DNA of 64,000 bases from a virus (IMGVR_UViG_3300033145_001546:13256-77255); one strand, 5' to 3'; counted from the first letter of the stretch, positions 9,114-13,129 are shown. The notes: generated by a model not told the origin, from the letters alone. Translations and numbers: made by a program.

Positions 9114-9377
9114 ATGAAAACGAAAACGAAAATCGAAAACTATTTAGACGCTCTAAATTCTCTCGGTTTCGGAACGCCGTCTTCCGACGACGATTCCGGG
9201 ACGATAATATTAGACTCCGGCGATATTATCGAATTATCGAAATTCGAGCGGGGCGGGAAGGTTTCGACCGAAGACCGAAAAGTCTCTTTTTATTTTTCCG
9301 GCGTCTCGGATCTTATCGAAATTCTCTCCGGCGGAAAAGTCGTATATACGACCGCCGGAGAGACCGACGAGTTTTAA
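9114..9377 (+). CDS. Early cassette protein 1 (acidic; no C/W/H/Q or internal M)
   Basis: Strong GAAAGGGAAAGA RBS; TAA followed by hairpin. Confidence 0.8.
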   Translation: MKTKTKIENYLDALNSLGFGTPSSDDDSGTIILDSGDIIELSKFERGGKVSTEDRKVSFYFSGVSDLIEILSGGKVVYTTAGETDEF

Positions 9378-9429
9378 GAGTCTATAAAATACGGTCCGAG
9401 AGAATCCGGACCGGTTTTTATACGCTTTT
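9376..9429 (+). repeat. Intergenic hairpin, variant copy
   Basis: AAGAGTCTATAAAATACGGTCCG-loop-CGGACCGGTTTTTATACGCTTTT. Confidence 0.8.
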
Positions 9430-9471
9430 AAGAAAATCGAAAACTTTACTTTAAGCGAAAGGGAAAGAAAA

Positions 9472-9708
9472 ATGAAAACCGAAAAAACGGAAAAACGAGT
9501 AGAGTCGATTCTCGGAAAGGAAGCTTCGATTCTTTTCGATTCGGAATTCGAGAGGATGGGGATTTTCCAGGTAGAGAATTCCGATTCGGAAAACGAAAAG
9601 TTACTTTCGGAATTTCTCTCGGCGGTCGGAAAAACGGTTTCGGAAATCGACCGGGAAATTCTAAAAGGAATTATAAAAGAAGAATTAACCTATATAAACT
9701 CCTTCTAA
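9472..9708 (+). CDS. Early cassette protein 2 (acidic)
   Basis: Same RBS block as cassette 1. Confidence 0.8.
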   Translation: MKTEKTEKRVESILGKEASILFDSEFERMGIFQVENSDSENEKLLSEFLSAVGKTVSEIDREILKGIIKEELTYINSF

Positions 9709-9724
9709 TTCTCCTTTTCGAGTA

Positions 9725-10016
9725 AAAAGCCTATAGACTACCGGACCCGAAAAGGGTCCGGGTCTCTATACGCTTTTAGAGTAACTCTATACGCTTTTCG
9801 AGTAACTCTATACGCTTTTCGAGTAACTCTATACGCTTTTCGAGTAAAAAGACGAATCGATTAAAGACGAATCGATTAAAGACGAATCGATTAAAGACGA
9901 ATCGATTAAAGACGAATCGATTAAAGACGAATCGATTAAAGACGAATCGATTAAAGACGAAAGACGAATCGATTAAAGACGAATCGATTAAAGACGAATC
10001 GATTAAAGACGAATCG
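9725..10016 (+). repeat. Hairpin + 4x 21-bp repeat + about 11x 15-bp repeat
   Basis: Hairpin 9725-9777; CTCTATACGCTTTTCGAGTAA x4 (9764-9847); AAAGACGAATCGATT x10 plus 2 partial (9848-10016). Confidence 0.95.
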
Positions 10017-10038
10017 TATATTTTAGAAAGGGAAAGAA

Positions 10039-10287
10039 ATGAGTAAAAGAAAAAGCGTAGACGAGAAAATCGGGAATTTACTTCTTTCGGAAATATCGAA
10101 AGTCGATTTACTTTTTTCGATGTATACCGAATATTCCGAAAAACCGGAGATGGAAAAGCGAATAATCGAAGCGATAGTAATATATAATTCGCTTCGGGAA
10201 AGAAATCTTATCCCGGAAAATTCGGACGTAGAAGACTATAAATCGGCTTTCCCGAATATAAAAATGATTCCCCTAATGGAGGTATAA
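10039..10287 (+). CDS. Early cassette protein 3
   Basis: GAAAGGGAAAGA RBS; no C/W/H/Q. Confidence 0.8.
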   Translation: MSKRKSVDEKIGNLLLSEISKVDLLFSMYTEYSEKPEMEKRIIEAIVIYNSLRERNLIPENSDVEDYKSAFPNIKMIPLMEV

Positions 10288-10406
10288 AAAGCCTATAGAC
10301 TACCGGACCTTCTCCGGGTCCGGGTCTCTATACGCTTTTAAGACGAACCGAATTAAAGACGAACCGATTAAAGAATAATTGAAACTATTTTAGAAAGGGA
10401 AAGAAG
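10287..10406 (+). repeat. Hairpin + 2x 15-mer + RBS block (type B spacer)
   Basis: Near-identical to 11200-11318. Confidence 0.9.
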
Positions 10407-10607
10407 ATGGAAAACGAAAAAGCGAAAAAATTTGGAGTAAAATGCTATCGACATGCTTCCTCAATTTTCGGAGAGGCGACCCGCTGGGCGAAAAAAGCCG
10501 ATGGAAACCGTATCGAATTCGATACGGTAGAAGAAGCGGAAAGATACGCCGAAAAAAGAAATAACAAAGGAATCTTAAATTGCGAGTATTTCTTTAGCCG
10601 AATCTAA
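10407..10607 (+). CDS. Early cassette protein 4
   Basis: Conserved RBS; FDTVEEAERYA motif typical of small phage proteins. Confidence 0.75.
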   Translation: MENEKAKKFGVKCYRHASSIFGEATRWAKKADGNRIEFDTVEEAERYAEKRNNKGILNCEYFFSRI

Positions 10608-10621
10608 GCCACCGAAGTATA

Positions 10622-10852
10622 AAAAGCCTATAGACTACCGGACCTTCTCCGGGTCCGGGTCTCTATACGCTTTTCGAGTAACTCTATACGCTTTTCGAGT
10701 AACTCTATACGCTTTTCGAGTAACTCTATACGCTTTTCGAGTAACTCTATACGCTTTTCGAGTAAGAAGACGAACCGATTAAAGACGAACCGATTAAAGA
10801 CGAACCGATTAAAGACGAACCGATTAAAGACGAACCGATTAAAGACGAACCG
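10622..10852 (+). repeat. Hairpin + 5x 21-bp repeat + 5.8x 15-bp repeat
   Basis: Hairpin 10622-10674; 21-mer 10661-10765; AAAGACGAACCGATT 10766-10852. Confidence 0.95.
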
Positions 10853-10875: not shown

Positions 10876-11196
10876 ATGAAAACGAAAGAGTTTATGAAAT
10901 TAGTCGAAAAGGCGATGAAGAAAATCGAATCGGAAAACGTCGAAGAACTAATCGAAAAAGCCGAAGATTATTGGGAATCCGGTATAGCTATTCGATTTTC
11001 GCCGATGGATGAAGAAAATGAGACGGAAATCGACGGAGTATATTCCGAAGAGAAAATTGAATTCGAGCGGCTCCGATGGTTGGCTGCTGCTTGGGCTTCC
11101 GTACTTAAAACCCGAAAACTCTTAGAAGGTCATCCATCGGCGAAATTAGACGAAATCGAAAACGACTTAAAAGGAGACTTAATAGACGTTCTTTAG
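10876..11196 (+). CDS. Early cassette protein 5 (acidic, possible DNA mimic)
   Basis: Conserved RBS; about a quarter of residues are D/E. Confidence 0.75.
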   Translation: MKTKEFMKLVEKAMKKIESENVEELIEKAEDYWESGIAIRFSPMDEENETEIDGVYSEEKIEFERLRWLAAAWASVLKTRKLLEGHPSAKLDEIENDLKGDLIDVL

Positions 11197-11199
11197 AAT

Positions 11200-11318
11200 A
11201 AGAGCCTATAGACTACCGGACCCGAAAAAGGTCCGGGTCTCTATACGCTTTTAAGACGAACCGATTAAAGACGAACCGATTAAAGAATAATTGAAACTAT
11301 TTTAGAAAGGGAAAGAAG
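11200..11318 (+). repeat. Hairpin + 2x 15-mer + RBS block (type B spacer)
   Basis: Copy of 10287-10406. Confidence 0.9.
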
Positions 11319-11543
11319 ATGAAAGCACCGAAAAGTAGAATCATCAAAGAGGCAGCCGAAAAAGCCGGCATCCCGGTCGTGGTCGCAAAATTATCAGAGC
11401 ACGTTCACCGAGTATTTCGCCCCAAAAGAGAATTGGGTCGATGCACCTTTTGCGGGTCTACAGTTGTGATAATAAATGAAGAGTGGACTTGCCTGATGTG
11501 CCGCACTTCAGGGGATAAACCGAAAAGAGCACGCCGAATATAA
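11319..11543 (+). CDS. Small zinc-ribbon protein
   Basis: CTFC...CLMC; conserved RBS. Confidence 0.7.
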   Translation: MKAPKSRIIKEAAEKAGIPVVVAKLSEHVHRVFRPKRELGRCTFCGSTVVIINEEWTCLMCRTSGDKPKRARRI

Positions 11544-11620
11544 GAGTGTGCCGGATAGGGTCTGAACTTTCGCAGGCCTGTTCCGATATACTTTTGAGAC
11601 TTATTTTGAAAGGGAAAGAA

Positions 11621-11803
11621 ATGAGCATGTGGGCCGATATAAAAGGAAAGACACGCCCTGTAGAATCGGCAGAGCAAATCACCCGTGGGAAGAGAAAAGG
11701 ATGGTATAGAATTGTGCTGCCTGACGGAAAGAAAGCCGTGGTAGAGCACGTCCGAATATTCACACCTGGAGCAAACGTGCCGTGTAGTAGAGCAAGAAAA
11801 TAA
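11621..11803 (+). CDS. Hypothetical early protein
   Basis: ATG at 11621 after TTTGAAAGGGAAAGAA. Confidence 0.65.
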   Translation: MSMWADIKGKTRPVESAEQITRGKRKGWYRIVLPDGKKAVVEHVRIFTPGANVPCSRARK

Positions 11804-11837
11804 GAGCAATCGAAACCTATTTTGAAAGGGAAAGACG

Positions 11838-12092
11838 ATGAGTAAAAAGCACGAAGGGTCCGCAAAAGAGCATCAAGAAGAGCACGCCACAAAAATCAAA
11901 AGAAGAATCGTGGACATGTACAGGAAAGAATTGAACGCCATTTGCATCTTTCCTTATCGCAATTTCATACTTTCAGCAGCAGTAGAAAGCCTTGTGGTAG
12001 TCTATAGAATAGACCCTGAGCGGTCGCTAAAGTATATGTGTGAAGTCGATACAATAGAAGAGGCAATTGACTTCATCCATAAGCAGCCGTAA
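11838..12092 (+). CDS. Hypothetical early protein
   Basis: Conserved RBS. Confidence 0.65.
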   Translation: MSKKHEGSAKEHQEEHATKIKRRIVDMYRKELNAICIFPYRNFILSAAVESLVVVYRIDPERSLKYMCEVDTIEEAIDFIHKQP

Positions 12093-12196
12093 AGAGCATG
12101 CTGAGTAAGGTCCGGACCTATTAGAGATAGGCCGGACCTGTCTCACTGTGTTCCATAAATTGTAGAGTATAAACTATATTTTTGAAAGGGAAAGAA

Positions 12197-13045
12197 ATGG
12201 ACAATCTGAACACAAGAGCAATGTTAGTCGGGATCAAATTCTCGCAGTGGACCGGACGCACCATGGATAAGAAGGTGAGTCAAGAGGTCAGGAGTGCCAA
12301 ACACGCAGAAGCCGACACAGGGTCATGGTGGACGTATTTGGCACCGAAAAAGGCACTTCAGAAAATCAACACGGCATATTGCCGGTGCGATGTGATTCAC
12401 CGCCGATTGACCCTGCCGTGGACCGATGGAGGCATGAGAATTCTGCCCTCAGCAATGTTCATGGAGTATCGGTCAGAGATGAGCAAGAGCATTGAGGAAT
12501 TTCACGAGAGTGTAGAAGAATTCCTCAAAGAATATCCAACAATCCGGAAAAGAGCAGCCGAAAGACTGGGACAGCTGGCTGATGGAAAGAATTTGCCCAC
12601 CACGTCCGATATACGGAGCAAATTCGGTGTAGTGCAATCGCTGATTCCTTTGCCAACCACGGCAGACTTTCGGGTTGACCTGAGTGCAAATGACCTCAAA
12701 GATGCCAAAGAGCAAGTCACCCGGACTCTCACAGAGGCAACCGGACGTGCGATGGGGTCTCTGTGGGAAAAGCTTGGTGAAATGGTTGCGCATATGGAGG
12801 CAGTGCTCAAAGACGCCGATAAGAAGTTCACCAAGGCAACTATCAAGTCTTTGGAGGCCTTTTGCACGCAGATTCCAAAGATGAATATTACTGATGACAA
12901 AAAGCTTGAGGCAGTCCGCAAAGAGGTTTTGGAGCATCTGAAGAAGATGGACGCTGGTGCGATAAGAGAAGACGCCGGCAAACGCACTTCAGCAACCAAG
13001 ACAGCTACCAAACTCAGTAAGAAAATCGGCGCATTCAAATTATAG
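12197..13045 (+). CDS. DUF3150-like protein
   Basis: WTGRTMDK, TLPWTDGGMRILP, FLKEYP; precedes the AAA+VWA pair; RBS-supported start 12197. Confidence 0.65.
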   Translation: MDNLNTRAMLVGIKFSQWTGRTMDKKVSQEVRSAKHAEADTGSWWTYLAPKKALQKINTAYCRCDVIHRRLTLPWTDGGMRILPSAMFMEYRSEMSKSIEEFHESVEEFLKEYPTIRKRAAERLGQLADGKNLPTTSDIRSKFGVVQSLIPLPTTADFRVDLSANDLKDAKEQVTRTLTEATGRAMGSLWEKLGEMVAHMEAVLKDADKKFTKATIKSLEAFCTQIPKMNITDDKKLEAVRKEVLEHLKKMDAGAIREDAGKRTSATKTATKLSKKIGAFKL

Positions 13046-13129
13046 AAGAGTGCACTGGGTACGGTCCGAGAGAATCCGGACCGATCCCACTGTATTGTTT
13101 TGATAATCTATTTTTGAAAGGGAAAGAAG

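What the first reader, a model, noticed from the sequence alone, without database searches (positions are those of the whole stretch)
9376..13098. Family of eight covarying intergenic hairpins, probably RNA processing (RNase III-like) sites
Seen: imperfect stems of roughly 20-24 bp follow the stop codons at 9376, 9725, 10287, 10622, 11200, ~11542, ~12092 and ~13046. Core copy: AAAAGCCTATAGACTACCGGACC-loop-GGTCCGGGTCTCTATACGCTTTT, with a fixed internal loop and a C/C mismatch. Divergent copies keep pairing through compensatory changes (CCGGACC/GGTCCGG versus CGGTCCG/CGGACCG; TATAAAA/TTTTATA) and G-U pairs, indicating single-strand structure. Established: T7 early mRNA is cut into cistrons at RNase III stems with internal loops. 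Alternatives are attC-like ssDNA recombination sites or attenuators.
Basis: partly seen in the sequence, partly recalled or inferred. Interest (0 to 1): 0.7.

Follow-up and report, generated by a model that had tools for sequence, protein, structure and literature searches.

The report
Phage early-mRNA punctuation hairpins
Eight conserved RNA hairpins sit at the stop codons of the small early genes of an uncultivated 77-kb phage, in the slots where related phages carry self-cleaving hammerhead ribozymes or tRNAs, so they most likely mark where the early message is cut into single-gene pieces, as RNase III sites do in phage T7; no cutting has been shown.

Summary
Eight irregular hairpins of 21-27 rungs lie on the + strand between 9372 and 13102, at or just after stop codons. 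A covariance model finds exactly these eight and nothing else in the 77-kb genome. Fifteen of 21 pairs show compensatory changes. G-U pairs and fold energies point to RNA of the coding strand.

All copies share one build: GC-rich top helix, 2x2 or 3x3 internal loop, middle helix, one C-C or C-A mismatch, A/U-rich base that often holds the stop codon. About a dozen distant relatives have the same build without sequence similarity.

The new evidence is positional. In relatives the same intercistronic slots hold type II hammerhead candidates (seven in a row in L135), tRNAs or tRNA-like elements. This favours RNA cleavage over termination.

RNase III is the likeliest enzyme because the helix is two turns long with a T7-like internal loop, but this is untested and the host is unknown. 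The attC reading is rejected. Intrinsic termination is unlikely, because the phage's canonical-looking terminators elsewhere are built differently.

This is a known kind of signal in a new phage group, absent from Rfam. The scan holds about 150 similar notes from other phages.

The parts
9372..9433 (+). hairpin w1; stop codon 9375-9377 lies in its 5' arm; upper stem is followed by GUUUUUAU
   Evidence: -29.3 kcal/mol, z -6.6; 72.6 bits
9725..9777 (+). hairpin w2 (core copy), 16 nt after stop 9706-9708
   Evidence: -30.8, z -5.9; 34 bits; not in the model's seed
10287..10339 (+). hairpin w3; abuts stop 10285-10287
   Evidence: -28.1, z -4.0; 30.8 bits; not in seed
10622..10674 (+). hairpin w4, 14 nt after stop 10605-10607
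   Evidence: -27.1, z -4.3; 30.2 bits; not in seed
11199..11253 (+). hairpin w5, 2 nt after stop 11194-11196
   Evidence: -27.1, z -5.7; 35.2 bits; not in seed
11541..11596 (+). hairpin w6; stop 11541-11543 is its first three bases; five G-U pairs; the - strand does not fold (-10.3)
   Evidence: (69.7 bits)
12094..12153 (+). hairpin w7, 1 nt after stop 12090-12092, upstream of the DUF3150 gene; longer top helix
   Evidence: -36.1, z -7.0; 54.7 bits
13043..13102 (+). hairpin w8; stop 13043-13045 of the DUF3150 gene lies in its base; 27 nt before the AAA-ATPase gene; relatives carry a hairpin, a hammerhead candidate or a tRNA or tRNA-like element in or near this slot
   Evidence: -29.6, z -6.4; 71.8 bits
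11801..11837 (+). hairpin-less junction that keeps only the TAAGAGCA start of a hairpin before the usual leader; same in relative L131
9099..13127 (+). ten exact copies of the ribosome-site leader GAAAGGGAAAGA, 2-4 nt before each early ATG (9099, 9457, 10026, 10393, 10862, 11305, 11608, 11824, 12184, 13116)
   Evidence: 17 matches at up to 1 mismatch against 1.0 expected
9764..9847 (+). 21-nt tandem array (x4); the unit is the 3' arm of the hairpin plus CGAGTAA; a second array lies at 10661-10765 (x5)
9848..10016 (+). 15-nt tandem array AAGACGAAYCGATTA (x11.8); shorter arrays at 10340-10374, 10767-10852 and 11253-11286
7980..8608 (+). four sigma70-like promoter matches (7980, 8335, 8393, 8581) upstream of the early operon; context only, consensus matches

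Best explanation
The eight hairpins are punctuation marks in the phage's early polycistronic mRNA. The host RNA polymerase probably makes this mRNA from promoters near 7980-8608.

Each hairpin folds in the transcript at the end of a small cistron. A double-strand-specific endonuclease, most likely the host's RNase III, is proposed to recognise the two-turn helix. It would cut at or near the internal loop, which lies about one helical turn below the tip.

This would give single-gene messages. The upstream piece would keep a 3' hairpin cap. The downstream piece would start shortly before the uniform U-rich / GAAAGGGAAAGA ribosome site.

Shown: the structure, its covariation, its strand, its positions, and the equivalence of its slots with ribozymes and tRNAs in relatives. 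Inferred: the cleavage itself, the enzyme and the cut site.

As a by-product, the repeated hairpin-and-leader modules serve as homology for swapping small gene cassettes.
For: 1. Real, selected RNA structure. 15 of 21 pairs have compensatory changes and 90% of cells are paired against 26-49% when slid. The + strand is favoured.

2. Conserved shape without conserved sequence. The build is a top helix of 6-8 bp, 2-3 non-canonical rungs, 2-7 bp, a single mismatch, then 6-10 bp, for 21-27 rungs in all. It is seen in the window, in L131 and in about 12 distant relatives. R1 ranks most of the distant orthologues first, or first in the expected slot, in their loci. This length matches the roughly 20-bp minimum of RNase III (established knowledge). 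The layout matches T7 R0.3 to R1.3 folded here: upper stem 9-10 bp, internal loop, lower stem about 8 bp.

3. Slot equivalence. L135 has seven Hammerhead_II candidates (29.6-36.2 bits, gathering score 37, intact CUGAnGA / GAAAC / GUC core). Each lies 0-20 nt after a small ORF's stop. A tRNA-like element follows the DUF3150 gene. L107 has a hammerhead candidate exactly where w8 sits. L134 and L141 mix hammerhead candidates and hairpins in one operon. L144 and L109 have tRNAs near the AAA gene. L115-L117, L154 and L162 have acceptor-plus-T-arm mimics by eye. The hammerhead core pattern hits 17 times on the gene strand, 0 on the other and 1 in shuffles. Tandem hammerheads flanking phage genes are already read as mRNA processing, with in vitro cleavage shown (PMC3088659).

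4. Not terminators of the usual kind. The phage's canonical-looking terminators are perfect stems followed by U-runs (39869-39900 and about 23080). Only w1's top stem passes the terminator scan.

5. No promoter-like site lies between hairpin and next gene, so the genes are probably co-transcribed.
Against: No cleavage data of any kind exist. The host is unknown, so its RNase III and that enzyme's preferences are unknown.

The internal loop (2x2 or 3x3, symmetric) is smaller than T7's 4x5 loop, and there is no sequence similarity to T7 sites.

The base of the helix keeps a fixed polarity, A-rich on the 5' side and a U4-5 run on the 3' side. This also fits a weak A-tract/U-tract terminator.

The hammerhead matches are all below Rfam's gathering score.

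Slot equivalence shows a shared role. It does not prove that the role is cleavage, because all three element types could also act as 3' end caps.

The covariation alignment was fitted to the structure, and many rows are paralogues; w2-w5 are near-identical.
Confidence: 0.55

Rival explanations
1. Weak intrinsic terminators (attenuators). Each hairpin plus its short U-run stops a fraction of polymerases, grading expression along the early operon or requiring a phage antiterminator.
For: The 3' strand of the base is U-rich in nearly all copies and relatives (CUUUU, GUUUUU, UAUUUA), with an A-rich 5' partner, as in A-tract/U-tract terminators. The top stem of w1 followed by GUUUUUAU passes the terminator scan. 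A long structured leader at 8616-9065 could be an antitermination RNA; this comes from a first-stage note and was not tested.
Against: Seven of eight copies fail the terminator scan. The U-run is only 4-5 long, is part of the helix, and in w2-w5 is separated from the stem by CGC.

Conserved mismatches sit near the base, where terminators need tight pairing. The phage's canonical-looking terminators are perfect stems followed by U-runs.

Several distant orthologues are followed by A-runs (L108, L146, L156). Ribozymes and tRNAs in the same slots do not terminate transcription.
Confidence: 0.12
2. Passive 3' caps or insulators. The hairpins are not cut. They only block 3'-to-5' exonucleases after random decay, as REP elements do, or keep each ribosome site from pairing with upstream coding RNA.
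For: The hairpins are very stable, at -27 to -36 kcal/mol. They sit directly at the stop codon. The ribosome sites downstream are uniform.
Against: This reading does not explain the conserved helix length of 21-27 rungs. It also does not explain the conserved placement of an internal loop and a mismatch across relatives that share no sequence; a cap only needs stability.

The equivalent elements in relatives (hammerhead candidates, tRNAs) are cleavage signals.
Confidence: 0.12
3. Target of another factor. This could be a phage-encoded RNA-binding protein or nuclease, for example one of the unknown small early proteins, or a different host nuclease. It would recognise the conserved shape, including the near-invariant A on the 5' side of the internal loop.
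For: The 5' side of the internal loop is UA in all 11 close copies. It is GA, CA or UA in most distant ones. This hints at a sequence-specific contact that RNase III does not need. Most early proteins have no known family.
Against: No candidate protein is conserved together with the hairpins. Of the eight small early genes upstream of the DUF3150 gene, only one (11621-11803) has a homologue in any relative, yet the hairpin shape is clade-wide.
Confidence: 0.1
4. DNA-level elements whose main role is recombination. They would be cassette boundaries used for gene shuffling (PeSL-like), or attC-like single-strand recombination sites.
For: Gene content differs from the nearest fetched relative exactly at hairpin/leader boundaries. 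Five extra cassettes lie at w1-w5. L131 has an extra gene between the DUF3150 gene and its hairpin. Two junctions have lost the hairpin and keep only TAAGAGC.

The spacers after w3 and w5 are nearly identical, as are those after w2 and w4.
Against: Compensatory changes and G-U pairs show selection on a folded single strand of the coding sense.

The phage has no integrase, no attC core motif and no extrahelical bases. No promoter accompanies the stem-loop, which PeSLs require (PMC4122927).

Shuffling is better seen as a side effect of repeated modules.
Confidence: 0.08

Closest known systems
RNase III processing signals of the phage T7 early region (R0.3, R0.5, R1, R1.1, R1.3)
   Same: They lie between cistrons of an early transcript made from a cluster of host-type promoters. 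They form a paralogous family. Each is a two-turn irregular hairpin with an internal loop about one turn below the tip (T7 sites folded; window copies).
   Different: There is no sequence similarity. The internal loop here is small and symmetric (2x2 or 3x3 against about 4x5). There is an extra conserved 1x1 mismatch. The stop codon is often inside the base. The hairpins are more stable. Cleavage is untested and the host is unknown.
Tandem hammerhead ribozymes flanking genes in phages and prophages (Perreault et al. 2011, PMC3088659)
   Same: The topology is the same: one element after each small gene, in front of the next ribosome site. Relatives of this phage use type II hammerhead candidates in the orthologous slots.
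   Different: The window's hairpins have no hammerhead core and no Rfam match even at E up to 1. They cannot be assumed to self-cleave and would need a protein nuclease.
tRNA punctuation of polycistronic transcripts (mitochondrial model; tRNA-like 't-elements')
   Same: In relatives, tRNAs (L144, L109), a tRNA-like element (L135) or acceptor-plus-T-arm mimics (L115-L117, L154, L162) lie in or near the slot that w8 occupies.
   Different: The window phage has no tRNA at all. Its elements are plain hairpins, so RNase P and RNase Z would not be the enzymes.
PeSL promoter/stem-loop cassettes of T4-type phages (PMC2839356, PMC4122927)
   Same: Repeated intergenic modules flank small, variable early genes and coincide with indel boundaries between close relatives.
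   Different: PeSLs are a terminator-like stem-loop fused to an early promoter. No promoter-like site accompanies these hairpins, and the stems are much longer.
Bs-RNase III sites of Bacillus phages SP82/SPO1 (from my own knowledge of Panganiban and Whiteley 1983; not read here)
   Same: They are conserved hairpins between early genes, cut by host RNase III.

Membership tests
T7-type RNase III processing signal | Lies between cistrons of one polycistronic transcript | tested here: met
   All eight lie 0-16 nt after a stop and 24-261 nt before the next ATG. There are no promoter-like sites in between, and four upstream at 7980-8608.
T7-type RNase III processing signal | Irregular helix of about two turns, split by an internal loop into upper and lower stems | tested here: met
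   21-27 rungs, with the loop at rungs 7-11 from the tip. T7 sites were folded for comparison.
T7-type RNase III processing signal | Cut by RNase III at a defined bond | not testable with these tools
   No RNA-end data are available. The host is unknown. The phage has no RNase III or dsRBD gene.
T7-type RNase III processing signal | Homology to the T7/T3 site consensus | tested here: not met
   No shared motif is seen between the sequences. The resemblance is by analogy only.
Intrinsic (Rho-independent) terminator | Uninterrupted GC-rich stem directly followed by a U-tract | tested here: not met
   Only the top stem of w1 passes the scan. The other copies have mismatches near the base and U4-5 inside the helix. 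The phage's canonical-looking terminators differ.
Integron attC site | Integron integrase nearby | tested here: not met
   No PF00589 match in the 77-kb genome.
Integron attC site | R''/R' core sites (RYYYAAC ... GTTRRRY) and extrahelical bases | tested here: not met
   The arms start with AAGAG and end with CUUUU. The irregularities are symmetric mismatches, not bulges.
PeSL (T4-type) | Stem-loop fused to an early promoter | tested here: not met
   No promoter-like site on the + strand in any spacer from 9378 to 13130.
PeSL (T4-type) | Marks indel boundaries between close relatives | tested here: met
   Window against L131.
Hammerhead ribozyme, type II (RF02276) | Catalytic core CUGAnGA ... 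GAAA and a three-stem junction | tested here: not met
   No Rfam match in the window at E up to 1. Relatives do have candidates.

The most novel reading that the evidence does not exclude
Within one phage clade, plain hairpins, type II hammerheads and tRNA-like elements are interchangeable 'cut here' modules that travel with small early gene cassettes. The hairpin version would be read not by RNase III but by an unrecognised factor that needs the fixed geometry: top helix, internal loop with a conserved A, single C mismatch, and stop codon in the base. One possibility is a cut coupled to the terminating ribosome.
Probability: 0.12. Interest if true: 0.75.

Novelty: new member of a known kind. 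Interest (0 to 1): 0.48.

Why it matters
If the hairpins are cut, this clade offers a natural experiment. The same intercistronic slot is filled by a protein-dependent hairpin, a self-cleaving ribozyme or a tRNA.

That would give a direct argument for what tandem hammerheads in phages are for, namely cutting long messages into gene-length units. It would also show that phages replace one cleavage device with another freely.

The hairpin family is not in Rfam and could be added as a motif.

For annotation, the hairpins, the uniform ribosome sites and the repeated spacers delimit a hyperplastic early region made of gene cassettes of unknown function.

Tried and rejected
- **Public libraries.** Rfam gave nothing in the window at the gathering score or at E up to 1. 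DNA similarity to 50,697 phage records found nothing. The DUF3150 protein matches only three cyanophage records, at 26% identity.
- **Relatives by other routes.** Searching through the AAA-ATPase found none. The leader motif in viral contigs gave only single chance matches, so that scan was wasted. The bacterial and archaeal genome collection held none, so there is no host clue.
- **Alignment.** MAFFT on all 11 copies misaligned the top stems of w2-w5 (A2). It was replaced by a 7-row seed (A3) and a model-based alignment (A4). A4 contains two reverse-strand echoes, which I removed for my own counts.
- **Rejected readings.** attC sites, PeSL membership, N4-type hairpin promoters or T7-type phage promoters (the phage has its own sigma factor and no phage RNA polymerase was seen in the ORFs scanned), a phage-encoded RNase III, and a self-cleaving motif (no conserved unpaired core).
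- **tRNA-like elements.** ARAGORN did not call them in L115-L117, L154 or L162. They rest on visible acceptor-plus-T-arm pairing and one weak Rfam tRNA hit.

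
Full report
**Setting.** The window is bases 13256-77255 of a 77,255-bp IMG/VR phage record. It encodes a large terminase and a portal on the - strand. On the + strand it encodes an SNF2 helicase, a primase, a DnaB-like helicase, DNA polymerase A, a clamp-loader-like ATPase, RecA and a sigma-70 region-2 protein. No phage RNA polymerase turned up among the ORFs scanned, so the host enzyme presumably transcribes the early genes. 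The strand switch lies near 7800-8000. Four sigma70-like promoter matches on the + strand follow at 7980, 8335, 8393 and 8581. After about 500 nt without ORFs comes a row of small genes (87, 78, 82, 66, 106, 74, 60 and 84 aa), none with a PHROG match. Then come a DUF3150 protein, a MoxR-like AAA ATPase and a DUF2201 VWA/metallopeptidase protein.

**The observation.** They fold at -27 to -36 kcal/mol, with z from -4.0 to -7.0. The stop codon lies in the 5' arm in three copies, abuts it in one, is 1-2 nt upstream in two, and is 14-16 nt upstream in two. The next ATG follows after 24-67 nt, or after 201-261 nt where tandem repeats intervene.

I built covariance model R1 from w1, w6, w7, w8 and three copies in a relative. 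With filters off it finds all eight + strand copies, including w2-w5, which it had never seen. It finds nothing else in the window or in the remaining 13.3 kb of the genome. The family is therefore real and confined to 9372-13102.

**Covariation and strand.** On the model-based alignment, 15 of 21 pairs change on both sides. Cells are 90.4% paired, against 26-49% when the 3' partners are slid by 1-3 columns, and no shuffle reaches the observed score. Counting only the 11 + strand rows gives 188 Watson-Crick cells, 19 G-U, 7 A-C and 17 other.

The four divergent window copies fold 5-17 kcal/mol better on the + strand. For w6 the values are -27.3 and -10.3. The four near-identical core copies fold equally well on both strands. 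The structure is therefore that of the coding-sense single strand, most simply the mRNA.

Two caveats apply. The alignment was fitted to the structure. Several rows are recent paralogues.

**Anatomy.** Read from tip to base, every copy has:
- a loop of 5-8 nt;
- a GC-rich helix of 7-8 bp;
- a symmetric 2x2 or 3x3 internal loop whose 5' side is UA in all 11 close copies;
- 4-7 bp;
- one C-C or C-A mismatch;
- 6-10 A/U-rich base pairs with the A-rich strand on the 5' side.

The total is 24-29 rungs in the window's own copies and 21-27 in most copies across the clade, a little over two turns of A-form helix.

**Relatives.** The DUF3150 protein has homologues at 73-86% and at 25-47% identity. I therefore used pattern-based scans, which gave 24 viral and 80 metagenome loci.

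The nearest, L131 (73%), has the same leader and three hairpins that match R1. Two of them are positional orthologues of w7 and w8, with compensatory stem changes.

At about 45% protein identity the sequence similarity is gone. The slot in front of the AAA gene still holds a hairpin of the same build in about a dozen loci: L108, L111/L139, L132, L134, L141, L146, L150, L156, L165, L168 and others. R1 ranks most of them first, or first in the expected slot, in their loci, though only L108 is individually significant.

**The key comparative result.** The same slots are not always filled by hairpins. A note from an earlier window (e1-6066212) prompted me to check for tRNA-like elements.

- Several relatives have acceptor-plus-T-arm mimics there (L115-L117, L154, L162).
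- L144 and L109 have tRNAs near the AAA gene.
- An Rfam search at relaxed threshold then found type II hammerhead candidates in L116, L107, L141, L134, L112, L136 and L135. They score 26.8-36.2 bits against a gathering score of 37. The L116 alignments show an intact GAAAC / GUC / CUGAUGA core.
- A simple core pattern hits 17 times on the gene strand of the relatives, never on the other strand, and once in shuffles.
- In L135, seven candidates follow seven consecutive small ORFs, 0-20 nt after each stop. A tRNA-like element (44.5 bits) follows the DUF3150 gene. That is the same layout as the window's eight hairpins.
- In L107, a hammerhead candidate sits between the DUF3150 stop and the AAA start, where the window has w8.
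- L134 and L141 mix hammerhead candidates and hairpins in one operon.
- A rough census of the 140 nt before the two conserved genes gives 26 hairpins, 5 hammerhead candidates and 3 T-arm elements before DUF3150. It gives 22, 1 and 3 before the AAA gene.

Tandem hammerheads that flank phage genes have been read as devices that cut long phage transcripts into gene-length mRNAs, and three such arrangements cleave in vitro (PMC3088659). Two of the three occupants of these slots are RNA cleavage signals. The third, the hairpin, most likely serves the same end.

**Which enzyme.** A plain hairpin without a conserved unpaired core cannot be assumed to self-cleave. A helix of two turns with an internal loop one turn below the tip is what bacterial RNase III cuts. 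It is also how the five T7 early sites look when folded with the same tool: upper stem 9-10 bp, internal loop, lower stem about 8 bp. The phage has no RNase III or dsRBD gene, so the host enzyme would act. This step is inference; the host is unknown.

**Rivals.**
- *Intrinsic termination.* This is the main rival, because the 3' strand of the base is a U4-5 run paired to an A-run. However, only w1's top stem passes the terminator scan. The mismatches sit where terminators need tight pairing. Several orthologues are followed by A-runs. The phage's canonical-looking terminators elsewhere are perfect stems followed by U-runs.
- *A passive 3' cap.* This would not need a fixed length or fixed irregularities.
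- *attC sites.* Excluded: no integrase, no core motif and no extrahelical bases.
- *PeSL membership.* It fails for lack of a promoter (PMC4122927). The PeSL-like consequence is visible, though. Against L131, gene content changes exactly at hairpin/leader borders. Only one of the eight small early genes has a homologue in any relative. Two junctions keep only the TAAGAGC start of a lost hairpin.

**Verdict.** The interpretation as RNA processing sites is strengthened by slot equivalence, but RNase III itself remains unproven. The kind is known (T7, SP82/SPO1, tandem hammerheads). This family is uncatalogued and belongs to a new phage clade. The scan already holds about 150 similar notes from other phages, several followed up with the same conclusion, which tempers the interest.

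Noticed in passing
window 8360-10380 (weaker to about 11300): The dinucleotides CA and TG are almost absent (odds ratios 0.02 and 0.07), while CG is 2.45-fold over-represented. The few exceptions are mostly ATG start codons. The proteins encoded here almost lack His, Gln, Cys and Trp. Hairpins w1-w3 lie fully inside this zone and w4-w5 in its weaker tail. The homologous zone of L131 is only partly depleted, and distant relatives are not depleted. First-stage notes flagged this too. The cause is unknown.
   Followed up: partly
L135 99-3312 (SDBT01135844.1); also L107 5422-6902, L116 5410-5719, L134 5898 and 9610, L141 5900, L136 252, L112 5657: Arrays of type II hammerhead candidates just below Rfam's gathering score, one after each small early gene of related phages. 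L135 has seven in a row followed by a tRNA-like element.
   Followed up: partly
window 9764-10016, 10340-10374, 10661-10852, 11253-11286: Tandem arrays follow hairpins w2-w5. A 21-nt unit, made of the hairpin's 3' arm plus the 7 nt that precede the hairpin, is repeated 4-5 times. A 15-nt unit AAGACGAAYCGATTA is repeated 2-12 times. They may be slippage products or binding-site arrays; this is not resolved.
   Followed up: no
window 8616-9065: An ORF-free leader of the early operon with several strong hairpins (for example 8662-8725, -31 kcal/mol). Their build differs from the family and R1 does not match them.
   Followed up: no
window 23091-27586: A radical-SAM gene region appears to be interrupted by an intein. 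It carries Hint domains plus a DUF559 endonuclease at 25108-26346, then an intein splicing domain plus a radical-SAM domain at 26327-27586. Next to it lie a PLP-dependent enzyme, a PAPS-reductase-like protein and a DNA methylase. This may be a DNA-modification module.
   Followed up: no
window 16096-16629: A phage-encoded sigma-70 region-2 protein, probably the switch to middle or late transcription.
   Followed up: no
window 33059-34258 and 34788-36170: A uracil-DNA-glycosylase-family domain is fused to a 3'-5' exonuclease domain. The DNA polymerase A palm is encoded by a separate downstream ORF.
   Followed up: no
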